Source of the DNA: a virus
Lineage: Duplodnaviria; Heunggongvirae; Uroviricota; Caudoviricetes
IMG/VR virus record: IMGVR_UViG_2563366941_000007
Coordinates: 1-55,118 of that record
Length of the DNA stretch: 55,118 nt
Strand: one strand, 5' to 3'
Every line of letters begins with the position of its first letter. The first letter of the stretch is position 1. The position numbers and the translations under genes were made by a program. Shown piece by piece: positions 16,904 to 35,720 of this stretch. The notes beneath the pieces were generated by a model. It worked only from the letters and a program-made list of their open reading frames with translations, searched no databases and was not told the origin of the DNA.

Positions 16904-17694
16904 TTACGCCAGTTGAACGGACACGAACTCATCAGGATCAGCCAGCAGCATCAGCGGTGCTGACTGAATCATGGTGAACTCTCGCGCCGGATCGCCGGAT
17001 GTCTTCCAGTTTTTCGGATAACGGGGAGACGCATTAATACCCTCACTCAATGCATCCGCATCCTGAATACAGCCATAGGTGCGCAGACCGCGTGCATGAG
17101 TGTTACCCAGCACCATCGTGTTGTCCGGCAGGAAGTTCTTTTTGACGCCGTTTTCCACGTACTGTCCGGAATACACGACGATGGCCACATCTCCATACAT
17201 TCCCTTATAAGACACCGCTTTGCCCAGGTCTTTTACCGCTGTCTCCAGTTCGGAATGAGAGCCGCGACGGGTATCCAGCTTCTCCCTGACGGCTTTGAAG
17301 GAACGGAACAGCGCCCAGCCTTTCGGATCAAACACGATGATATTCACCACGCCGCTGGCGTTCAGCGCGTAGGCTTCGATATCGTCGGTCGGATCATACG
17401 TGGACTTGTCACGCTTGCTCCACTCCGTGCCGCCGGACTGCGTGATGTTGTTGGCCGCACTGCGGCCCATATCCACCTCAACCGGATCGAAGGCTTCACC
17501 AGTCATGGTGTATTTGCCCTTGAGCACGGCAGAAACGGCCTGCATCTCTTCGACCTGAGCAATGGCCAGCTCTTCGTCACGCATGTTCTGCATGATGATG
17601 CGACGGCGGCGGTAAGCCGGGTCCGCCAGATTCTGCGGATCTTCATCCGGCAGGCGACGCAGGGTCATCTGCGGATTCACCTCATGCTTGGGTT
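16904..17694 (-). pseudogene. E: Major capsid protein E, C-terminal fragment (codons from ...KPKHEVNPQMTLRRL to the stop)
   Basis: Translation matches about 260 C-terminal residues of lambda gpE; the N-terminal 91 codons lie 11.6 kb away at 29261..29536. Confidence 0.9.
17685..17694. repeat. 10-bp direct-repeat core TGCTTGGGTT, left copy (element/E junction)
   Basis: Identical 10-mer at 29292..29301; both sit exactly where E homology breaks. Confidence 0.8.
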
Positions 17695-17766
17695 ACATGA
17701 GTCAAATATGAAAGGAACTGAATGATTTTTAATGAAATAAATGGCTCTCTCTATCAAAATACAGCT

Positions 17767-17792
17767 AAAAAGCAATACACGTAGCAATACAG
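17767..17792. repeat. Tandem GCAATACA(N) motifs (AAAAAGCAATACACGTAGCAATACAG), candidate integrase arm-type sites, left end
   Basis: Near-identical motif AAAAAGCAATACAAGCTGCAATACAG at 29139..29164 at the opposite end of the element. Confidence 0.45.
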
Positions 17793-17821
17793 CGCTTCGC
17801 AAAGGTATGTCACTATATCTA

Positions 17822-18790
17822 CTAGTGCCAACCAGAATACGAATATCTTTGCTTTGCTTCTTCTGGGCTCATACCCACTAGTAAAGATACTAATTCAAAG
17901 TCAGGTTGTGGAATTGGAATCAATGCAGCCAAATATGCTGGCTTATTGAGAACAATTGTTGATAATTTAGCTTTATTCACCTTAGATAACTCAATATTAC
18001 TTTCCGCTACCTTCGGGAACTCCATAATAAATGAATCAATTTCCCTTATGAGATAATCGATCAACGCCACTATACTTTCTGTCAAATCAATATATTTTGA
18101 CAACTCACTAGCACCAATTTCTTTCTTTATTTCATCCAATTTAATTTCAAACACTGGCTTGTCTTTACTGGCAATATTAGACAAACGTTTCTTTAAATCT
18201 GAATCAAGCTGATTCCTGACAATTAAACTTTTCAAAACAAAATTATAATTAAACAAAAAAGCATCAATTCGAGCAATATTCCTCCATGACTTTCCAATTT
18301 CTTCATCTGACGGCATAATAAGTTCATGTTTTAGTATCTTGTACTTAATAAAAAAAACAAACCTCTCAAATAGAGATTTATTAGCTGTGGGTATCTTTTT
18401 TATAAATGAAAGACGGCTAATATCGAAATTTACCTCCCCGGCGTTAAATAAAAATTCATTTATTGCCAGCGCTCTTAATATTGGATTTCTAGATCTCAAA
18501 CCAATATAACTACTTTTAATTCCCACAAGTGTATTTATCATCTGAAAAGAAACCATCATAAGCGTATTAGCAGAATTAAATTTCTCCGTTTCTATTTTAA
18601 TCTTCTCCTGCCTATTATTGATGCAATAAGCAGTTAAGCCTCCCATAAGCGCCGATAAAAAAGATAATGCAATAGGGAATACATAATCTTTTGTATAATC
18701 AACATCTGCTTTCAACATTAGTATTGCTTTAGCAATCAAAACTGCATCAGGGGTCATGTTAGAGCCGTCATTAAAAATTAAACACAACAC
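17822..18790 (-). CDS. Hypothetical membrane-anchored protein (N-terminal TM segments plus ~250-aa soluble domain), AT-rich cargo gene
   Basis: 322-aa ORF in a conspicuously AT-rich segment; hydrophobic stretches AVLIAKAILML and VFPIALSFLSALMGGLTAYCI near the N-terminus; no recognisable family by eye. Confidence 0.55.
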   Translation of the reverse strand: MLCLIFNDGSNMTPDAVLIAKAILMLKADVDYTKDYVFPIALSFLSALMGGLTAYCINNRQEKIKIETEKFNSANTLMMVSFQMINTLVGIKSSYIGLRSRNPILRALAINEFLFNAGEVNFDISRLSFIKKIPTANKSLFERFVFFIKYKILKHELIMPSDEEIGKSWRNIARIDAFLFNYNFVLKSLIVRNQLDSDLKKRLSNIASKDKPVFEIKLDEIKKEIGASELSKYIDLTESIVALIDYLIREIDSFIMEFPKVAESNIELSKVNKAKLSTIVLNKPAYLAALIPIPQPDFELVSLLVGMSPEEAKQRYSYSGWH

Positions 18791-19454
18791 CCATAAAATA
18801 TAACAGCTTATTGTTTAGAAAAGCAATATCATACACTCTATGATAAGCGTAATATCTGACAGGCATGGTGTGTTACGACACTTAATTAAACGTAATTTGC
18901 TAAAATTTTACACACAGAATCACACCAGGCTCTAACTCTCCTTTCATTACAATTGTAAGCATACAATTATCCTACCAGAACTTTATTGTTGAGCTCTCCC
19001 TTTTGAGCCCATCCCATAATGAATTGACGAAAGAACCGTATCTGTGGAGTAATCATTTCTGCGCGGTTCTATGTCGAAGACAAAATGTGGTATGCGCATC
19101 TAGTCAGAGGGAAAGCAATTTTTCAGGGAAATATCATCTCTACATGGTTAAAACAACCAGAAGAAGTTATCAAGCAAGTTGGGTATGAAGATTTTCCTAT
19201 AATAGTAACGAAACGGGTTTCACCTGAGCGGTTGTGTTCGATCCGCCACAATACGCATAGGATGCCCTGTAATCCGTATTCTGCTTACTCAACAGCTTAC
19301 CAGCAGGACTCGTAAGGCTGTTGCGATAGTGCAGAAGTAGGCCACGACCATAAAGTGAAGCCAGTGGCGCGTTATCGACTACTTTAGTGTAGAGCCTGAT
19401 TTCAACGCAAGCATGAGAGTTTTTTCTGGCGATAGGCCGTGACAAACAGCAACA

Positions 19455-19675
19455 AAATCAGAGAAAGGAAACGGCAGAGGCCAAAAAGCCCGTTTTCAGC
19501 GCCTGTCATTTCCTTTCTTTTCAGGGGGTATTTTAAATAAAAACATAAAGTTACGGCAAAGAAGAACGGAAAAGCCTTAAACCGGAAAATTTCCATAAAT
19601 AGAGAAAAACTGCGCGCCTGACGCCCCGTAACGTTCTGGATCGCCGGAAAGGACCCGCCAGCCAGAGCGGGCCCT
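19455..19675. other. cos-like packaging site of the satellite (cosB R-site and IHF-site homologs; divergent cosN)
   Basis: Aligns base-for-base with much of the prophage cos region 35480..35720 (e.g. GAAAGGAAACGRCAGAGGCC, TTTCCTTTCTTTTCAGGGGGTATTTTAAATAAAAACAT, CCTTAAACCGGAAAATTT); differs at about 5 positions within the cosN-equivalent segment. Confidence 0.75.
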
Positions 19676-19682
19676 AATTTCA

Positions 19683-20066
19683 TCAACCAATCAGCTTATA
19701 GCGACCATCCCGTGCATTGCGGCGTACACGCTCAATCTTGAGGCATAGCGCCGCATCTGGCTTTTTTGGGACAGGTACGCGGCAATATTCAGAAGCGCGA
19801 GGAATATTATTTATCCAGTCGATCACTTCACTTAAATACCAGGCCTTACGCCCTTCCGTAACCTGCACACGCTCCGGGAACTCTCCACTAGCCTCAAGGT
19901 TTAGCAGTGTACGACGACTCAGGGTTGTAATTTCCATCACCTGATTCATATCAACAAGGCGCTCGCTTAAACACATTTTGTCAGCGATAGCTTTTAATTC
20001 CTCTACAGCTGGATTCGGGTACATCATTTCGGCAATTGGCTTAAGGTCATTGTAATCATTCTGCAT
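19683..20066 (-). CDS. AlpA/Nu1-like HTH protein next to cos; candidate packaging-redirection (Rpp-like) or regulatory protein
   Basis: 127-aa ORF with HTH-like segment MEITTLSRRTLLNLEASGEFPERVQVTEGRKAWYLSEVIDWI; functional call is inference from position beside cos. Confidence 0.45.
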   Translation of the reverse strand: MQNDYNDLKPIAEMMYPNPAVEELKAIADKMCLSERLVDMNQVMEITTLSRRTLLNLEASGEFPERVQVTEGRKAWYLSEVIDWINNIPRASEYCRVPVPKKPDAALCLKIERVRRNARDGRYKLIG

Positions 20067-20077
20067 TGTATCCCCCT

Positions 20078-20419
20078 TTACACACGAGCCAGCGGCTGAA
20101 CAGAAATACCTGAGCCAACAAACGCTGCAACCTTTACTGACAGTTCTTTAACAGACTCAGGCCAGTTCAGAGCATCAACATTTAAGACACCTGTCTTATA
20201 GACCTGAGCCTGTGTTTTTTTCGCGGTGTCGATTTGTACAGCGGAAACATAAACCGCTTTACCTACGCTCGAACCATCCCATACCACCAGTGCACCTGTT
20301 GCATCTTCCTGCATCAGTGGCGTAAATGCAGGAATTACCCCTTTATTAGCTGAAAATATCCCCAGCGTAGTCACCAGTGCTTCAGTGCCAGCCATGAGTT
20401 CAGTGTAATGAGTAGCCAT
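20078..20419 (-). CDS. Head decoration protein, divergent homolog of lambda gpD
   Basis: 113 aa; shares PLM...VVWDGS...YKTG...WPE...AAFVGSGISV pattern with gpD (PLML...VAWDGT...YKSG...WPE...[10 protein letters not shown]). Confidence 0.7.
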   Translation of the reverse strand: MATHYTELMAGTEALVTTLGIFSANKGVIPAFTPLMQEDATGALVVWDGSSVGKAVYVSAVQIDTAKKTQAQVYKTGVLNVDALNWPESVKELSVKVAAFVGSGISVQPLARV

Positions 20420-20428
20420 TGCTCCCCC

Positions 20429-21469
20429 TTAGCCAATGCGAACGGTAACAAAACGATTGATGCGGGCCGGTATTGGCTGTGGTGCTGAATGTGTCTGCAC
20501 ATATTCAATAGCCGGATCACCAGGCACAATATAGTTTTTCGGTGCAAGTTCGGCTTTAGTCAGCCCCATTCGGATTAGCTCCGGATCCTGAATACCGCCA
20601 TAGGCGACAATCCCCTGAAGAGCCGTATTGCCAAGCACCATCAAATCAGGATCAAGGAAATGTTTTTCTGTTCCGTCCTCGTCGGTATAACGCCCGCTGT
20701 AAACAACAATCGCAACATCGCCCATATACCCTTTAAAACTCACCGAATCACCAAGGTCTTTAAGGGCCGTTTCCAGTTCGGAATTAGAACCACGACGGGT
20801 ATCCAAAGCCTCTTTTATCGCTCTGAATGAACGGTATTTCTTCCATACATTACCACCCATAATGATGATATTAGTGACGCCCTCACTAAATTCTGCGTAG
20901 CTCTCAATATCATCATTTGGATCAAAAGTTTCTTTATCCTTACCTGACCACTCAGTACCGCCAGACTGAGTGATGATATTTTGTGGTTTTATATTCCAGT
21001 CCAGCTCATAACGTTCAATACCATCGCCCTCAATGATATTTTTCCCCGTTGTGATTGCCTGAACAGCAAGCCATTCAATACGTGCACGAATAGCTTTAGC
21101 CTGATTTACAATCGCCTGTTTAACTTTAATATTACGCGCCCCAAAAGCATTGTATTGCTCAGGTGACACACCAACAGGGCGCACAGCTAACTTATTTGGA
21201 TCAATGCTGCTTTTCGGCTTCATATAACCTGGACGAATTGTTTTTGATTCGTATCCCTCATCTCGTGAAACTTTACTGCCCACCATAGGAGAGCAAAACG
21301 CCGCGATCGGGATATTTGGATCGTCGATCGTATCAAGAATAATGTCTCTCGATTCAAACATTACCGAGCGAGTGAAAAACAAACTGGTAAACAACGCATT
21401 TAATTTTTTTTGTACATCTACAGCATTAACCACCTGTACAAGCTGAGTAGGCGAATATAAATCAACCAT
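20429..21469 (-). CDS. Major capsid protein, divergent homolog of lambda gpE
   Basis: Shares PGYMKPK, QSGGTEWS, DTRRGSNSELETALKDLG, GDVAIVVYSG, MVLGNT blocks with gpE; start at 21469 is preceded by AAGAGGA. Confidence 0.8.
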   Translation of the reverse strand: MVDLYSPTQLVQVVNAVDVQKKLNALFTSLFFTRSVMFESRDIILDTIDDPNIPIAAFCSPMVGSKVSRDEGYESKTIRPGYMKPKSSIDPNKLAVRPVGVSPEQYNAFGARNIKVKQAIVNQAKAIRARIEWLAVQAITTGKNIIEGDGIERYELDWNIKPQNIITQSGGTEWSGKDKETFDPNDDIESYAEFSEGVTNIIIMGGNVWKKYRSFRAIKEALDTRRGSNSELETALKDLGDSVSFKGYMGDVAIVVYSGRYTDEDGTEKHFLDPDLMVLGNTALQGIVAYGGIQDPELIRMGLTKAELAPKNYIVPGDPAIEYVQTHSAPQPIPARINRFVTVRIG

Positions 21470-21751
21470 ACGCATCCTCTTTGCATTCATTAAAAATAAT
21501 TGTGGATATATGCTATCACCGATATTTGTCATGCGAACACATGCAACCGAGTGCAATGTTGTATAAAGTTTTGGGGTGACAACTTCAGTGCGGACAATTA
21601 GTGTTAATATCTTCACTCCCTTTGGTCGGGATTTATGTAGCATGCCGGAAAATTTATTTTTTCCGGCCTTTTTTTATTGGCAATATTTAAAACGGGGGTG
21701 ATGCTGCCAACTTACTGATTCAGTGTATGATGGTGTTTTTGAGGTGCTCCA

Positions 21752-22027
21752 GTGGCTTCTGTTTCTATCAGCTGTCCCTCCTGTTCAGCTACTGACGGGG
21801 TGGTGCGTAACGGCAAAAGCACCGCCGGACATCAGCGCTATCTCTGCTCTCACTGCCGTAAAACATGGCAACTGCAGTTCACTTACACCGCTTCTCAACC
21901 CGGTACGCACCAGAAAATCATTGATATGGCCATGAATGGCGTTGGATGCCGGGCAACAGCCCGCATTATGGGCGTTGGCCTCAACACGATTTTACGTCAC
22001 TTAAAAAACTCAGGCCGCAGTCGGTAA
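21752..22027 (+). CDS. insA: IS1 InsA
   Basis: 91-aa [43 protein letters not shown]... Confidence 0.95.
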
Positions 22028-22449
22028 CCTCGCGCATACAGCCGGGCAGTGACGTCATCGTCTGCGCGGAAATGGACGAACAGTGGGGCTATGTCGGGGC
22101 TAAATCGCGCCAGCGCTGGCTGTTTTACGCGTATGACAGGCTCCGGAAGACGGTTGTTGCGCACGTATTCGGTGAACGCACTATGGCGACGCTGGGGCGT
22201 CTTATGAGCCTGCTGTCACCCTTTGACGTGGTGATATGGATGACGGATGGCTGGCCGCTGTATGAATCCCGCCTGAAGGGAAAGCTGCACGTAATCAGCA
22301 AGCGATATACGCAGCGAATTGAGCGGCATAACCTGAATCTGAGGCAGCACCTGGCACGGCTGGGACGGAAGTCGCTGTCGTTCTCAAAATCGGTGGAGCT
22401 GCATGACAAAGTCATCGGGCATTATCTGAACATAAAACACTATCAATAA
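21946..22449 (+). CDS. insB: IS1 InsB reading frame (InsAB' transposase made by -1 frameshift)
   Basis: ORF ...[50 protein letters not shown]... typical of IS1 InsB. Confidence 0.9.
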
Positions 22450-22463
22450 GTTGGAGTCATTAC

Positions 22464-22913
22464 CTAAAACGGGATATCATCTCCCCATTGCTCATTATCT
22501 CCCACTGGTGGCTGGCTTCCTTGCTGATCTGCCTGTTGTTTTGCTCTGTTCAGTGCGTCAGTAGCCTGCCCCTGTTGGCCTTTATTGCCGCCCGGTCGCA
22601 CCGATCGCGCACTGATTACGCTGTCTGCGATAACCTGCCAGCCCTGCCGCGTTTCGCCGTTCTGTCCAGTCCACTGGCTCATCTGCATGTTACCCGCCAC
22701 GCTCAGGAGTTCGCCTTTGTGATGCTTTGCCAGCGCGTCGGCTTGTCTGCCAAACGCCAGGACAGATAACCACATCGTCGCCTGACCGTCATCCGACTGA
22801 CTGCAGGGCAGTGATACCGCCATACGCGCCAACGTCATGGGGGTGCCCTTGCTGGTCTGTTTTGTCTGCGGGTCGTCCACCGACCGCCCGTAAACTGATA
22901 TTTGCGCCGTCAT
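22464..22913 (-). CDS. Single-stranded DNA-binding protein (SSB-like)
   Basis: 149-aa ORF with OB-fold-like core and acidic C-terminal tail ending DDIPF; the present stop codon TAG is formed by the last base of IS1 plus the target duplication. Confidence 0.7.
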   Translation of the reverse strand: MTAQISVYGRSVDDPQTKQTSKGTPMTLARMAVSLPCSQSDDGQATMWLSVLAFGRQADALAKHHKGELLSVAGNMQMSQWTGQNGETRQGWQVIADSVISARSVRPGGNKGQQGQATDALNRAKQQADQQGSQPPVGDNEQWGDDIPF

Positions 22914-26333: not shown

Positions 26334-26690
26334 ATGAAATACGAATTCTTCGCAACAAGTAGCAGTAGTTTGGATGTATACATAGTCACTGTATCAAACG
26401 ATTCTGGCTCTCTAATCATGACTTGTAATTGTCCAGCAGGAAGTAAAGGTATTCTATGTAGACACCGTAAAGCTTTAATTACCGGAAAAATCCGCGGTAT
26501 ATTCACTCCCCCAAGAAGGAATAATCCCGAAAAATTACAAGAAGCTATAAATTTAATAGCCACATATGGCATAGATAAAACATTAAAGTTGTACACTGAT
26601 GAGTTAGAACGAGCAGAACAGACTTGGATAAGTGTTCGCGATAATTTGAGAGCAATGATAAACGCTCTTGTTGAACCACCTAAATATTGA
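26334..26690 (+). CDS. Small SWIM-type zinc-finger protein (CxCx9CxH), AT-rich cargo gene
   Basis: 118 aa; motif MTCNCPAGSKGILCRH; strongly AT-rich coding sequence. Confidence 0.5.
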   Translation: MKYEFFATSSSSLDVYIVTVSNDSGSLIMTCNCPAGSKGILCRHRKALITGKIRGIFTPPRRNNPEKLQEAINLIATYGIDKTLKLYTDELERAEQTWISVRDNLRAMINALVEPPKY

Positions 26691-26821
26691 ACTGTTCACA
26701 TTGCCTATCAGGCGATAACCTCGTATTCTGATTAAGGCTAACTATATACTCACATTGGCGACCAATTCTGGTCGCCTTTATCTACCATTTTTATAATATC
26801 ATAGATTAAGAGTGTTAATCC

Positions 26822-27676
26822 TTACCCCCTGAATGGAATTGATGAGGATTTAATTTCCACAGAACCAAATCCTCTTGAATCCAAAAACATTTTTATACCA
26901 GCCTCAATAAAATCATAATCGCTTGTCGGGCCAATTGTAATGCTTTTAATTGGTAACTTTCTATTATCTTTATTATTAATAATGATATAAGGGATGATAC
27001 CATTATTATTTATTCTAAATTTCACATCTGGCATTTGTATCCACGGAGTAAACACCAGTCTAAATTCATTTTCTTCGATAAAACTAGGATGTTTAAAAAA
27101 TGGGATATATTTAGATATAAATTGATACGTAGAGACCATTGTTACAAAATGATCATTCATTTCTTTAATGTTAATACCATTACAAGAAAAAAACTCATCC
27201 AACTCCTTACTCATCTTTGTAATATCGTCATTATTTGAATATATAACATCATGTGCAACACAATTTAAATAAATATTTTGACAAAAACTCACAAGTTCAT
27301 CCGCATCAAATTCAATGCAAACGCCCTGTTTATTTCCGTAACCTCTCCACTGACTTAACTTATCGTTTTCTTTACAAAAAGATATGCTATAAACATGTTT
27401 ATCAATCCCTTTTTCTTTTTGTAACTTCCCTTTCTCATACATGTCAAGAGACTTGAGCAAAATAGTTTTCTTATCTTTTGGGATGATATTATCATCAACT
27501 ATTTTAATTGTATTTCGAAAACATTCACATCCATGGTTAGACTCCTCTTTATCATTTAAGAAATATATATTTGTAGCCCATAAAGAATTAGAGTCTAATA
27601 TACCTTTCAAACCAAAAAGATCTGTATAATGAAATATAGCCACAATGCCCCACCTAATAGTTAAGTCGTTTCCCAC
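26822..27676 (-). CDS. DUF2971-like protein, AT-rich cargo gene (candidate defence-associated)
   Basis: 284 aa; N-terminal FHYTDLFGLKGILDSNSLWATNIYFLNDKEE fits the DUF2971 signature as recalled; AT-rich. Confidence 0.55.
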   Translation of the reverse strand: MGNDLTIRWGIVAIFHYTDLFGLKGILDSNSLWATNIYFLNDKEESNHGCECFRNTIKIVDDNIIPKDKKTILLKSLDMYEKGKLQKEKGIDKHVYSISFCKENDKLSQWRGYGNKQGVCIEFDADELVSFCQNIYLNCVAHDVIYSNNDDITKMSKELDEFFSCNGINIKEMNDHFVTMVSTYQFISKYIPFFKHPSFIEENEFRLVFTPWIQMPDVKFRINNNGIIPYIIINNKDNRKLPIKSITIGPTSDYDFIEAGIKMFLDSRGFGSVEIKSSSIPFRG

Positions 27677-27892: not shown

Positions 27893-29128
27893 TTAACCAG
27901 CCTTTTGTTTGAGGATTGTCACTTTTGAATCAGCACCTGCGATGCTATTGAGATATGTAGTCCAGAGTTCCAGAGCATCCAGTTTTTTAGCCATAAACTT
28001 ACTCCGGTTGTAAACACCCGCCACGCCAGGTAGCGCATGGCCTAACAGTTGTTCTACTACATAAAATTCAACACCGAGATCACTTAGATGAGTAGATAGC
28101 GTTCTTCTAAGGTCGTGTAGTGACCATTGTTTTTCATGGCCCAAACGTTTACCGATTTTCCCCCCAATCTTGCTTACGCTTTCTCTAATTCGCAGACTTC
28201 CCAGCACATAACCAGTATGTCTTGTCTCTTCGTGAACATCCGTTACCCACTGTCGTAGAATTTCAGGTACTGGTCTGACGATTTCAACACCAGTTTTTGA
28301 GTGATCTTTTGGTACCGTCCAAACCCAACTTTCGAGATCCCATTCGCTCCATTCAGATAATCGGGCTTCACTCATTCGACATCCAAATACTGTACAAAGC
28401 ACAAACATTTTTCGCGTGTATTCAGACATTAGTTTTAAATCAGGCTCGACAAAAATTGCCTTCCAGAGCTGGCCCAGTTCGGCTTCATCCAGAACCCGAT
28501 CCCGCTTACCTGCAATCTGCCCCACATCACTCATGCGCAAATCCTTTAAAGCATCACATGTCGCGTACTGGCGTACCCGACAAAAACGAAGAGCTAATTT
28601 AGTGTCAGAAAAAACATACGCCGCCATAACTGGTGCATTACGTTTAATTCGGTCAAAACAGTCCAGCCATTCATATAGGTGAGTGTCATTTACAGGCAAA
28701 TGACCGATATAGGGAAAGATATGCTTTCGAAATCTGCCAAGCGTTACAGCATGAGTTTTACGACGCACCTTACAGTAATTTTCATACCAGTAATTTAGTG
28801 CATCCTCCACTGTGACCGGCTTTAAGCGTTCTTCAGCCTGAATCTTAATCTGGATACGCGGATCACGTTTGTCAGCCAACCAACCACGGCACTCGTCGCG
28901 CTTTTCCCTTGCCTGTTTGAGTGACATATCAGGATATTTACCCAACGTTAGCCAGACCGGAGCAGCCCGGCCACCTGCTAACCTGTAGAAGAAAACAAAG
29001 CTCACAGCCCCCTTGGTACTCACACGAATAGAAAGCCCCTTTCCATCAGCAATGGTGATCTGCTTTTCTCTGGGTTTCCCCAGATATCCTTTAAGCGCTT
29101 TGTCGCTCAGTTTGTTCTCGCCAGCCAT
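27893..29128 (-). CDS. int: Tyrosine integrase, P4-like family
   Basis: Start MAGENKLSDKALKGYLGKPREKQITIADGKGLSIRVSTKG... has a P4-integrase-like N-terminus; C-terminal HDLRRT...LLGH...Y catalytic-region motifs; sits at the element end. Confidence 0.85.
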   Translation of the reverse strand: MAGENKLSDKALKGYLGKPREKQITIADGKGLSIRVSTKGAVSFVFFYRLAGGRAAPVWLTLGKYPDMSLKQAREKRDECRGWLADKRDPRIQIKIQAEERLKPVTVEDALNYWYENYCKVRRKTHAVTLGRFRKHIFPYIGHLPVNDTHLYEWLDCFDRIKRNAPVMAAYVFSDTKLALRFCRVRQYATCDALKDLRMSDVGQIAGKRDRVLDEAELGQLWKAIFVEPDLKLMSEYTRKMFVLCTVFGCRMSEARLSEWSEWDLESWVWTVPKDHSKTGVEIVRPVPEILRQWVTDVHEETRHTGYVLGSLRIRESVSKIGGKIGKRLGHEKQWSLHDLRRTLSTHLSDLGVEFYVVEQLLGHALPGVAGVYNRSKFMAKKLDALELWTTYLNSIAGADSKVTILKQKAG

Positions 29129-29138
29129 TTTTAGCCCC

Positions 29139-29164
29139 AAAAAGCAATACAAGCTGCAATACAG
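29139..29164. repeat. Tandem GCAATACA(N) motifs (AAAAAGCAATACAAGCTGCAATACAG), candidate arm-type/operator sites, right end
   Basis: Matches the motif at 17767..17792; lies just upstream of the int start codon. Confidence 0.45.
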
Positions 29165-29260
29165 AGATGATTGCAACACACAGATAACGAGGAAAATTCA
29201 GTGAAAGCGCCAGATAAACTTATTCTTTATTATCAAAAGATTAAGTGTAAAAACCAGCAA

Positions 29261-29536
29261 CTACACGAAAGCCTCAGAAAGCCATGCTAAGTGCTTGGGT
29301 TTGACATATCCCGGCGTAAATTCAGAGGTGGAGCCGCCACGGGAGCGGATAACCTCACCGGAAACAATCGGCGAAACGTACAGCGCCATGTTTACCAGTC
29401 CCGGAATTTGTGAGAGATAGACTTTCTCCGTAGTGAAGGGATAGCTCTCACGGAAAAAGAGACGCAGAAACAGCGGATCAAACTTAAATTTCTGCTCATT
29501 TGCCGCCAGCAGTTGGGCGGTTGTGTACATCGACAT
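29261..29536 (-). pseudogene. E: Major capsid protein E, N-terminal fragment (91 codons) fused to 9 element-derived codons
   Basis: MSMYTTAQLLAANEQKFKFDPLFLRLFFRESYPFTTEKVYLSQIPGLVNMALYVSPIVSGEVIRSRGGSTSEFTPGYVKPKH then LAWLSEAFV-stop. Confidence 0.9.
29292..29301. repeat. 10-bp direct-repeat core TGCTTGGGTT, right copy (element/E junction)
   Basis: Identical to 17685..17694. Confidence 0.8.
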
Positions 29537-31253: not shown

Positions 31254-34934
<3,681 letters not shown>

Positions 34935-34960
<26 letters not shown>

Positions 34961-35480
34961 TCAGCAACCCCGGTATCAGTTCATCCAGCGCGGCTGCTTT
35001 GTTCATGGCTTTGATGATATCCCGTTTCAGGAAATCAACATGTCGGTTTTCCAGTTCCGGAAAACGCCGCTGCACCGACAGGGGGATCCCGTCGAGAATA
35101 CTGGCAATTTCACCTGCGATCCGCGACAGCACGAAAGTACAGAATGCGGTTTCCACCACTTCAGCGGAGTCTCTGGCATTTTTCAGCTCCTGTGCGTCGG
35201 CCTGCGCACGCGTAAGTCGATGGCGTTCGTACTCAATAGTCCCTGGCTGGAGATCTGTCTCGCTGGCCTGCCGCAGTTCTTCAACTTCCCGGCGCAGCTT
35301 TTCGTTCTCAATTTCAGCATCCCTTTCGGCATACCATCTTATAACGGCGGCAGAGTCATAAAGCACCTCATTACCCTTGCCACCGCCTCGCAGAACGGGC
35401 ATTCCCTGTTCCTGCCAGTTCTGAATGGTACGGATACTCGCACCGAAAATGTCAGCCAACTGCTTTTTGTTGACTTCCAT
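34935..35480 (-). CDS. Nu1: Terminase small subunit Nu1
   Basis: 181-aa ORF MEVNKKQLADIFGASIRTIQNWQEQGMPVLRGGGKGNEVLYD... = gpNu1. Confidence 0.95.
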
Positions 35481-35720
35481 TGTTCATTCCACGGCCAAAA
35501 ACAGAGAAAGGAAACGACAGAGGCCCAAAAGCTCGTTTTCAGCACCTGTCGTTTCCTTTCTTTTCAGGGGGTATTTTAAATAAAAACATTAAGTTACGAC
35601 GAAGAAGAACGGAAATGCCTTAAACCGGAAAATTTTCATAAATAGCGAAAACCCGCGAGGTCGCCGCCCCGTAACCTGTCGGATCGCCGGAAAGGACCCG
35701 CAAAATGATAATAATTATCA
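35480..35720. other. cos: Prophage cos site (cosB R-sites/IHF site and cosN; cohesive-end 12-mer AGGTCGCCGCCC at 35667..35678 on the plus strand)
   Basis: Reverse complement of the lambda left-end sequence GGGCGGCGACCTCGCGGGTTTTCGCTATTTATGAAAATTTTCCGG..., directly upstream of Nu1. Confidence 0.9.

What the first reader, a model, noticed from the sequence alone, without database searches (positions are those of the whole stretch)
19440..20066. Satellite cos site mimics the helper cos (conserved cosB elements) but has a variant cosN, next to an AlpA/Nu1-like HTH gene
19455..19675 aligns with much of the prophage cos region 35480..35720 through the R-site/IHF-site block, with small differences (GAAAGGAAACGGCAG vs GAAAGGAAACGACAG; TCATTTCCTTTCT vs TCGTTTCCTTTCT). 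The segment equivalent to the 12-nt cohesive end and its flanks differs at about five positions (element ...GCGCGCCTGACGCCCCGTAAC vs helper ...CGCGAGGTCGCCGCCCCGTAAC). A 127-aa HTH protein is encoded immediately beside it. This is the expected layout for a cos-type satellite that hijacks helper terminase, possibly with its own specificity factor, though that role is inference.
Basis: partly seen in the sequence, partly recalled or inferred. Interest (0 to 1): 0.7.

Follow-up and report, generated by a model that had tools for sequence, protein, structure and literature searches.

The report
Packaging site of an embedded satellite
This is the lambda-type DNA-packaging (cos) site and a neighbouring AlpA-family regulator gene of a small parasitic element that sits inside the capsid gene of a lambda-like prophage; the system was published in 2023, and the odd sticky-end sequence is a natural, tolerated allele rather than a new packaging mechanism.

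Summary
Window 19459-19656 (minus strand) matches the prophage cos at 35502-35699 at 176/198 positions without indels. The match starts at cosQ and stops at R1. The 12-nt cohesive end differs at 5 positions (GGGCGTCAGGCG vs GGGCGGCGACCT).

The site belongs to an 11.6-kb helper-embedded PICI inserted in the helper's major capsid gene E. This is the "11capE" type of Tommasini et al. 2023, who already reported about 90% cos similarity between satellite and helper.

The cosN variant fits known biology. Four of the five changes lie in the mutation-tolerant right half, and the nick-flanking CG pairs are kept. Lambda-like prophages with about 99%-identical terminase carry the same allele natively. 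The helper terminase is therefore expected to bind and cut this site, though that is inferred, not shown.

The 127-aa protein is AlpA/excisionase-family. It lies upstream of cosQ, not in the Nu1/Rpp position. Identical alleles occur beside every cos type in relatives, so it is unlikely to be a packaging-specificity factor.

One small new point: every relative with a lambda-type cosB carries the variant cosN (25 distinct sequences, 0 canonical). In 6/6 composites checked, satellite and helper cohesive ends differ.

The parts
19459..19656 (-). Satellite cos site, cosQ through R1 (lambda bp -30 to +168)
   Evidence: 176/198 identical to the helper cos with no indels, and homology ends at both edges. 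blastn E=5e-73 to lambda-like phage cos regions.
19650..19656 (-). cosQ core GGGTCCT
   Evidence: The 12 nt GGGTCCTTTCCG are identical to the helper's. The 7-bp extent of cosQ is from my recollection of the lambda literature. High conservation of cosQ is stated in PMC4669245.
19615..19626 (-). Predicted 12-nt cohesive end GGGCGTCAGGCG (cosN), with conserved CG on both flanks
   Evidence: differs from the helper at positions 6, 8, 9, 10 and 12. The same allele is found in 25 distinct satellite cos sequences and 3 Nu1-adjacent phage cos sites.
19562..19577 (-). R3 (AGGCTTTTCCGTTCTT), the Nu1-binding repeat nearest cosN
   Evidence: 1/16 different from the helper, at lambda bp 54 (the fifth base of the 16-nt R3 repeat), which is G in lambda, A in the helper and T here. 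Coordinates of R3 are from PMC9026076.
19524..19561 (-). I1 region (IHF-site interval between R3 and R2)
   Evidence: 35/38 identical to the helper.
19503..19523 (-). R2 (inverted Nu1-binding repeat)
   Evidence: 20/21 identical to the helper.
19459..19478 (-). R1 (Nu1-binding repeat); homology with the helper stops just after it
   Evidence: 19/20 identical; the next 22 nt have 13 mismatches and no Nu1 follows.
19683..20066 (-). 127-aa AlpA-family winged-helix protein ('HTH127')
   Evidence: Pfam PF05930 E=7.6e-9. PDB 8c3t (GIsul2 excisionase) E=2e-9. phrog_2790 E=1e-49. AF2 core residues 36-86 have block-mean pLDDT 76-89, and the best fold hits are excisionases.
20078..20419 (-). Satellite head-decoration protein (gpD-like, 113 aa)
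   Evidence: Pfam HDPD E=4.5e-15.
20429..21643 (-). Satellite major capsid protein (gpE-like). The ORF is 404 aa; RefSeq relatives are annotated at 346 aa
   Evidence: Pfam Phage_cap_E E=9e-41; annotation in L001.
21697..22464 (+). IS1 inserted between the satellite ssb and capsid genes. The left end is the IS1 terminal repeat at 21697; the right end is approximate
   Evidence: Pfam DDE_Tnp_IS1 E=2e-78; IS1 terminal repeat at 21697; absent from the closest relatives.
17685..17694 (-). attR core AACCCAAGCA at the junction with the C-terminal part of helper gene E
   Evidence: lambda E alignment.
29292..29301 (-). attL core AACCCAAGCA at the junction with the N-terminal part of helper gene E
   Evidence: Core-to-core distance is 11,607 bp.
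27893..29179 (-). Satellite tyrosine integrase
   Evidence: Pfam Arm-DNA-bind_3 and Phage_integrase.
17822..18790 (-). orf322, cargo gene in the slot between cos and attR
   Evidence: phrog_21267, function unknown. The same slot holds a TIR protein or an Abi protein in relatives.
35502..35699 (-). Helper prophage cos (cosQ to R1), cohesive end GGGCGGCGACCT at 35658-35669
   Evidence: 96.7% identical to the lambda left end.
34935..35480 (-). Helper terminase small subunit Nu1
   Evidence: Pfam Phage_Nu1 E=2e-101; 98.3% identical to lambda Nu1.
33035..34960 (-). Helper terminase large subunit gpA
   Evidence: 99.4% identical to lambda gpA.

Best explanation
Window 19459-19656 is the functional lambda-type cos site of a helper-embedded PICI of the '11capE' type. 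[quoted passage not shown]

Proposed mechanism (inferred):
- After induction the satellite excises and replicates.
- The helper's Nu1 binds R3/R2/R1, with IHF at I1.
- gpA nicks cosN to give 5'-GGGCGTCAGGCG ends.
- DNA is packaged from cosB through orf322, attP, int, primase, capsid, decoration and HTH127, and packaging terminates at cosQ/cosN.

The cohesive-end variant is a naturally circulating cosN allele that lambda-type terminase tolerates; it does not mark a different packaging specificity. The adjacent 127-aa gene encodes an AlpA/excisionase-family DNA-binding protein of the satellite's late (capsid) module. It is most likely a transcriptional regulator, not the determinant of cos recognition.

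Shown here: the sequence anatomy, the family membership, and the comparative distribution of alleles. Inferred: cleavage by helper terminase, the packaging direction, and the regulatory role of the 127-aa protein.
For: Anatomy of the element. It carries int, small AlpA, DUF2971, D5 primase, SSB, gpE-like and gpD-like genes, HTH127 and cos, and it is bounded by 10-bp cores that split helper gene E. The same arrangement is annotated in other E. coli genomes. It matches PMC10111431, which reports a 10-bp core, an 11-kb element in capsid gene E, and satellite and helper cos about 90% identical.

Functional constraint on cos. Homology with the helper covers exactly cosQ to R1 with no indel. cosQ is 12/12 identical, the nick-flanking CG pairs are intact, and R3, R2 and R1 each differ by a single base.

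Tolerance of the variant cosN. Four of the five changes lie in bp 7-12. PMC4669245 reports that mutations there have minimal effect and that natural variation is common: N15 differs at bp 9 and 12, Gifsy-1 at 8, 9 and 11. Prophage L124 has the variant cosN followed by Nu1 (98.9% identical) and gpA (98.75% identical) to this helper's, plus an intact E. A third allele, GGGCGGAAGGCG, sits before a gpA that is 99.7% identical.

HTH127. It is AlpA family and its best fold matches are excisionases. Alleles 100% identical to the window's lie beside canonical or variant cosN, beside lambda-type or alternative cosB, and with or without a Nu1-like gene downstream.
Against: No experiment shows cleavage or packaging at this site. 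Tommasini et al. could not detect the expected virions of the helper 50icd.

The element is only about a quarter of lambda's length. Packaging would need either cos skipping with multimers (as proposed for EcCICFT073) or small capsids built from its own capsid protein. Neither was tested.

The IS1 upstream of the capsid module may impair this particular copy.

The fixed position of HTH127, about 56 nt from cosN in 80/80 close relatives, leaves room for some cos-related role.
Confidence: 0.8

Rival explanations
1. The cosN divergence is adaptive. Satellites that keep the helper's cosB carry a different cohesive end, so that DNA cut at one satellite cos and one helper cos cannot cyclise. Such DNA could arise in the unexcised composite or after co-injection.
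For: All satellites with lambda-type cosB have the variant cosN (25 distinct sequences, 0 canonical). Nu1-adjacent phage sites are overwhelmingly canonical: at least 33 distinct canonical against 3 variant. In 6/6 composites, satellite and helper cosN differ. Even a 2-nt end mismatch lowers viable yield about four-fold (PMC4669245). Recombination between cosN and cosB evidently occurs, because variant cosN is also found with the alternative cosB.
Against: The pattern could be descent from a single captured cos module. No clear fitness gain for the satellite has been identified. The composites examined are close relatives of one another.
Confidence: 0.15
2. The 127-aa HTH protein is a packaging-specificity factor (Rpp-like or TerS-like) that directs helper terminase to the satellite cos.
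For: The gene lies immediately upstream of cos in 80/80 close relatives, and also in relatives only about 50% identical from Buttiauxella and Scandinavium. Its winged helix belongs to the same broad fold class as the Nu1 DNA-binding domain: 1j9i and 7lw0 appear among weak fold hits.
Against: Identical alleles accompany different cosN and cosB types. The cosB here is already helper-like. The gene is on the cosQ side, whereas Nu1 and Rpp lie downstream of cosB. There is no significant similarity to Nu1 and no sequence hit to Rpp or TerS chains in the PDB. Pluralibacter relatives have the gene but no lambda-like cos after it.
Confidence: 0.08
3. The site is meant for a different helper, a lambda-like phage that carries the variant cosN. 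The resident prophage is only the integration host.
For: Prophages with GGGCGTCAGGCG next to Nu1 exist (L083, L095, L124).
Against: Those phages have terminase subunits about 99% identical to the resident helper's, so no difference in specificity is expected. Every composite examined pairs the variant satellite with a helper that lacks the variant.
Confidence: 0.07
4. The cos is a decaying relic of a captured cos-Nu1 module and is no longer used. The element spreads only passively, inside the composite prophage.
For: Nu1 has been lost downstream of R1, and relatives keep a full Nu1-like gene or only its first bases. No virions were detected for the published prototype.
Against: All subsites and their spacing are conserved across 25 distinct sequences, while the flanks and the downstream cargo vary. 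The composite of about 60 kb would exceed lambda's packaging limit (inference from lambda biology).
Confidence: 0.05

Closest known systems
Helper-embedded PICI 'Eco567.11capE' in prophage 50icd of E. coli NRG857c (Tommasini, Mageeney & Williams 2023, PMC10111431)
   Same: Same insertion site in the lambda-like capsid gene E with a 10-bp att core. Same size class, same co-orientation and same gene order (int, AlpA, primase, SSB, capsid). The cos is about 90% identical to the helper's.
   Different: This copy carries an IS1. The paper does not mention cosN ('cosN' occurs 0 times in its text), and the sections I read do not mention the second AlpA-like gene next to cos.
EcCICFT073 cos1 / RppA system (Fillol-Salom 2018 and 2019; PMC6092414, PMC6739421)
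   Same: An enterobacterial PICI with capsid and decoration genes followed by a lambda-like cosQ-cosN, dependent on helper terminase.
   Different: The cos arrangement is the reverse. EcCICFT073 keeps the canonical cosN, has an unrelated cosB, and encodes Rpp downstream of cos. The window's element keeps the helper-type cosB, changes cosN, and has no Rpp or Nu1 homologue. The EcCICFT073 gene in front of cos (137 aa) is unrelated to HTH127.
Bacteriophage lambda cos (cosQ-cosN-I2-R3-I1-R2-R1) and natural cosN variants (Feiss laboratory; PMC4669245, PMC9026076)
   Same: Same subsite order and spacing. The cohesive-end variation is concentrated in bp 7-12, as in N15 and Gifsy-1, and the nick-flanking CG pairs are conserved.
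   Different: There are five differences, including bp 6, which is more than in the cited variants. No terS gene follows cosB.
AlpA / excisionase family (Pfam PF05930; PDB 8c3t, GIsul2 excisionase)
   Same: Winged-helix core at residues 36-86; 43% identity to 8c3t over 51 aligned positions.
   Different: It is 127 aa, with an N-terminal extension of about 35 residues and a conserved basic C-terminal helix. It lies in the capsid/cos module rather than beside int. A second, small AlpA next to int is only 36% identical to it.

Membership tests
Lambda-type cos site | cosQ element upstream of cosN | tested here: met
   GGGTCCTTTCCG is identical to the helper's and lies at the same distance from cosN.
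Lambda-type cos site | cosN: a 12-bp cohesive-end sequence with conserved left half and conserved CG at both nick positions | tested here: met
   Positions 1-5 and both flanking CG pairs are identical. Positions 6, 8, 9, 10 and 12 differ.
Lambda-type cos site | cosB with R3, I1, R2 (inverted) and R1 at fixed spacing from cosN | tested here: met
   No indels over 198 bp. Each R repeat differs from the helper's by a single base.
Lambda-type cos site | terS (Nu1) gene immediately downstream of cosB | tested here: not met
   Homology ends after R1. The 82-aa ORF there has no Pfam, PHROG or PDB match. Relatives do carry Nu1-like genes in this slot.
Lambda-type cos site | Cleavage by terminase to give 12-nt 5' overhangs | not testable with these tools
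   Needs in vitro cleavage or sequencing of virion DNA ends.
Helper-embedded PICI (HE-PICI) | [quoted passage not shown] | tested here: met
   Helper gene E is split at lambda E nucleotide ~238-245, and all satellite core genes are on the same strand as the helper's late genes.
Helper-embedded PICI (HE-PICI) | int plus AlpA, then primase/SSB, then a late zone; 10-20 kb; no terminase, portal or tail genes | tested here: met
   The element is 11,607 bp core to core.
Helper-embedded PICI (HE-PICI) | Helper-dependent excision, replication and transfer | not testable with these tools
   Excision of the prototype is reported in PMC10111431. Transfer was not shown there.
Rpp-type packaging redirection (EcCICFT073) | cosB unrelated to the helper's, and an Rpp gene downstream of cos | tested here: not met
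   The cosB is helper-like and no Rpp-like ORF is present.
AlpA family (PF05930), for the 127-aa protein | Match to the family profile above the curated threshold | tested here: met
   35.8 bits against a cut-off of 21. The fold matches excisionase 8c3t with TM 0.84 on the target.
Terminase small subunit Nu1 (PF07471), for the 127-aa protein | Profile match, or significant similarity to Nu1 | tested here: not met
   No PF07471 hit. BLASTP vs the helper's Nu1 gives E=0.18 over 48 residues.

The most novel reading that the evidence does not exclude
Embedded satellites that use the helper's own cosB keep a cohesive-end allele different from the helper's, as an isolating device. Chimeric molecules cut at one satellite cos and one helper cos would then have 5 mismatches in 12 and could not cyclise. 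On this reading, enterobacterial cos satellites always differ from their helper in one cos subsite: either cosB (the Rpp or own-TerS route) or cosN (this route).
Probability: 0.15. Interest if true: 0.55.

Novelty: already known. Interest (0 to 1): 0.3.

Why it matters
The main result is a correct filing. The locus is a published kind of satellite, a helper-embedded PICI that splits its helper's capsid gene, and its cos similarity to the helper is already on record.

The extra detail found here is modest. This satellite lineage always pairs a helper-type cosB with the cohesive end GGGCGTCAGGCG. Near-identical lambda terminases occur natively with three different cosN alleles. If the satellite-helper end mismatch turned out to be selected, it would add a second way for cos satellites to stay distinct from their helpers, alongside the Rpp/cosB route. 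It would also be directly testable with cos-plasmid transduction and allele swaps.

Tried and rejected
- Rpp or TerS homologue downstream of cos: the 82-aa ORF (19197-19445) has no Pfam, PHROG or PDB match and looks non-coding.
- Sequenced phage with the variant cosN in a lambda-like context: none among 50,697 phage records (best 89.2% over 74 nt). IMG/VR did yield 3 Nu1-adjacent sites.
- Exact-sequence literature search for the variant cohesive end: only irrelevant hits.
- Transferring knock-out evidence from EcCICFT073 (c1498-c1501 replaced, yet the island is still transferred) to HTH127: rejected, because the EcCICFT073 gene in front of cos is unrelated.
- PDB sequence search with the 35-38% Nu1-like protein of relatives: no Rpp hit. 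Only its C-terminal part matches Pfam Phage_Nu1.
- Promoter and terminator scan of 19100-21800: counts no higher than in shuffles.
- The hairpin overlapping cosQ folds at -22 kcal/mol, but the z-score is only -1.65.
- Rfam over the whole element: no family at gathering score, so no C4/isrK immunity RNA was detected.
- PADLOC: nothing for orf322.
- The paper on natural cosN variation (Vahanian et al. 2017) is not held in the library.

Full report
**Observation.** The coordinates below take lambda bp 1 as the first base of the cohesive end, read on the window's minus strand.

- Satellite 19459-19656 and helper 35502-35699 are identical at 176 of 198 positions, with no insertion or deletion.
- The similarity begins at cosQ, where GGGTCCTTTCCG is 12/12 identical, and ends just after R1.
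- The 14 nt upstream have 12 mismatches and the 22 nt downstream have 13.
- Within the block, each of R3, R2 and R1 differs from the helper by one base. The I1 interval differs by 3 of 38.
- The CG dinucleotides flanking both nick positions are intact.
- The cohesive end reads GGGCGTCAGGCG (19615-19626) against GGGCGGCGACCT (35658-35669). It differs at positions 6, 8, 9, 10 and 12.

The helper site is lambda cos, followed by Nu1 (34935-35480) and A (33035-34960). These are 98.3% and 99.4% identical in protein to lambda's. blastn of the satellite site against 50,697 phage records returns lambda-like cos regions at E=5e-73, so chance is excluded. The 127-aa ORF (19683-20066, minus strand) ends 56 nt before the cohesive end.

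**What the element is.** The minus strand reads as follows:

- the inserted block: a tyrosine integrase, a small AlpA, DUF2971, a SWIM protein, an Icd-like protein, a D5-type primase, SSB, an IS1, a gpE-like capsid protein, a gpD-like decoration protein, the 127-aa HTH protein, cos, and a 322-aa ORF of unknown function;
- the remainder of helper gene E (16904-17680), then FI, FII and the tail genes down to J.

Alignment with lambda E places the break at E nucleotide ~238-245. The two junctions share the 10-bp core AACCCAAGCA, at 29292-29301 and 17685-17694, which are 11,607 bp apart. The same nested arrangement, without the IS1, is annotated in E. coli LR-50, TUM14697, VCSW7, EC-10 and MDR_56.

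**Already published.** Tommasini, Mageeney and Williams (2023, PMC10111431) described exactly this arrangement as a helper-embedded PICI. [quoted passage not shown] They found 491 further examples. They state that a 258-bp sequence is shared at 90% identity between 11capE and 50icd at the position of lambda cos, and they presume packaging by the helper's cos machinery. Their text does not mention cosN. The sections I read do not discuss the second AlpA-like gene beside cos.

**The variant cosN.** Three lines of evidence indicate a tolerated, circulating allele rather than a new specificity.

- Position of the changes. Four of the five changes lie in bp 7-12. [quoted passage not shown] They report that natural variation there is common: N15 differs at bp 9 and 12, Gifsy-1 at 8, 9 and 11. 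They also report that the nick-flanking CG pairs and cosQ are conserved, and that lambda gpA cuts the lambda and N15 cosN equally well. Only the G-to-T change at position 6 falls in the more sensitive left half.
- The allele occurs in phages. An exact-pattern scan of IMG/VR found 52 stretches with the variant. Most are satellites. L083, L095 and L124 carry it in front of Nu1 and A, and L124 continues through an intact E. L124's Nu1 and gpA are 98.9% and 98.75% identical to this window's helper proteins. The VCSW7 helper has a third allele, GGGCGGAAGGCG, with gpA 99.7% identical. Near-identical terminases therefore live with three different cohesive ends.
- The allele is not in sequenced isolates. 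No deposited phage genome carries the variant in a lambda-like context, so it is a minority allele among phages.

**Distribution among relatives.** A peptide-pattern search with the 127-aa protein returned 80 IMG/VR loci at 95% identity or more. Each locus in which I could detect a cos site has it about 60 nt downstream of the gene. The cos sites fall into modules:

- a lambda-type cosB, followed by a full Nu1 homologue (70-74% identical to the helper's, and no closer to any sequenced phage), or by only the first bases of Nu1, or by nothing, as in the window;
- an alternative cosB (GGTGGTGGTTTTGTTGTT), followed by a protein 35-38% identical to Nu1 in which only the C-terminal part matches Pfam Phage_Nu1.

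Counting distinct cos sequences gives:

| Group | Variant cosN | Canonical cosN | Other alleles |
|---|---|---|---|
| Satellites, lambda-type cosB | 25 | 0 | 0 |
| Satellites, alternative cosB | 5 | 13 | 2 |

In all six composites where both sites could be read, the satellite and its resident helper have different cohesive ends. This may reflect descent from a single captured module or selection against matching ends. The sampling is not phylogeny-aware, so I treat selection as a minority possibility.

**The 127-aa protein.**

- Family. It matches Pfam Phage_AlpA (35.8 bits, cut-off 21), PDB 8c3t, the GIsul2 excisionase (E=2e-9), and phrog_2790.
- Structure. An AlphaFold model built on 27 homologues has a confident winged-helix core (residues 36-86, block-mean pLDDT 76-89). 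The N-terminal ~35 residues are poorly predicted, and there is a C-terminal helix at 105-119. Overall pLDDT is 68.5. The best fold matches are excisionases (8c3t, RdfS) and BldC/MerR-type domains. Nu1-type DNA-binding domains appear only far down the list. BLASTP against the helper's Nu1 gives E=0.18. 'Nu1-like' therefore holds only at the level of the broad fold class.
- Against a role in cos specificity. The gene is on the cosQ side, whereas Nu1 and Rpp are encoded downstream of cosB. Alleles 100% identical to the window's accompany canonical or variant cosN, and either cosB type. The cosB here is already helper-like.
- Synteny. The order capsid, decoration, HTH127 is conserved down to about 50% identity in Buttiauxella and Scandinavium, where the cosN differs again. 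In Pluralibacter the gene is present but no lambda-like cos follows it.
- Distribution. The protein has no close homologue in phage records (best 31%). It is 36% identical to the small AlpA next to int.

I infer that it is a regulator belonging to the satellite's late module. Its target is unknown.

**Comparison with EcCICFT073.** The model PICI (located at L251 7931-18655) has capsid and decoration genes, an unrelated 137-aa gene, a terminator, and then cosQ with a canonical cosN. Its cosB is unrelated to the helper's, and RppA follows. Published work shows that Rpp redirects helper TerS to that foreign cosB. The window's element is the mirror image: cosB like the helper's, cosN different, and no Rpp.

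**Mechanism and its limits.** What is shown is sequence anatomy and comparative distribution. Binding of Nu1 and IHF, nicking by gpA, the packaging direction and the ends produced are inferred from lambda biology. At 11.6 kb the element is about a quarter of lambda's length. It may be packaged as roughly four-unit multimers by cos skipping, as proposed for EcCICFT073, or in smaller capsids built from its own capsid protein. Nothing here decides between these. The IS1 between ssb and the capsid gene is absent from close relatives and may reduce the competence of this copy.

**Verdict.** The system is already known and interest is low to moderate. The one new detail is the strict pairing of helper-type cosB with a non-helper cohesive end in this satellite lineage.

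Noticed in passing
window 17695-19458 (between satellite cos and attR): This slot holds variable cargo. Here it contains orf322 (phrog_21267, unknown function, no PADLOC hit). Relatives carry a TIR-domain protein (TUM14697) or an abortive-infection protein (VCSW7) at the same place. It looks like a defence-gene hotspot of the satellite.
   Followed up: partly
window 21697-22464: An IS1 is inserted between the satellite ssb and capsid genes. It is absent from all close relatives in complete E. coli genomes and may be polar on the capsid/decoration/HTH127 module.
   Followed up: partly
L132 35724 (E. coli VCSW7 helper), L017, L048: Further cohesive-end alleles occur in lambda-like cos sites. GGGCGGAAGGCG is found in a helper whose gpA is 99.7% identical to this window's. 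GGGCGGAAGGCG and GGGCGGCTGACG are found in satellites.
   Followed up: partly
L010 5580-6113; L066 10574-11128: Relatives encode their own small-terminase-like proteins just downstream of cos. One kind is a full Nu1 homologue, about 71-74% identical to the helper's and no closer to any sequenced phage. The other kind keeps only the Nu1 C-terminal region behind a different N-terminus, and it always sits next to the alternative cosB.
   Followed up: partly
L126 and L127 (Buttiauxella, Scandinavium): Homologous satellites (HTH127 about 50% identical) are embedded near capsid-E and FI genes of prophages that have baseplate-J/P2-I-type tail genes. Their cosN is quite different, while the cosQ-like and I2-like flanks are shared.
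   Followed up: no
window 19645-19675 (minus strand): A 10-bp GC-rich hairpin directly after the HTH127 stop codon has its 3' arm overlapping cosQ (-22 kcal/mol, z=-1.65). EcCICFT073 has a clear terminator hairpin at the equivalent place.
   Followed up: partly
window 26334-27676: A DUF2971 protein and a divergently oriented SWIM zinc-finger protein lie between the small AlpA and the replication genes. They give weak PADLOC hits to candidate systems PDC-S31 and PDC-S62. Relatives carry an Abi-like protein in this zone.
   Followed up: no
L163, L165, L173, L183, L187, L209: Several IMG/VR contigs have two canonical cosN sequences in inverted orientation, 866 bp apart. This probably corresponds to the cos1/cos2 pair reported for EcCICFT073.
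   Followed up: no
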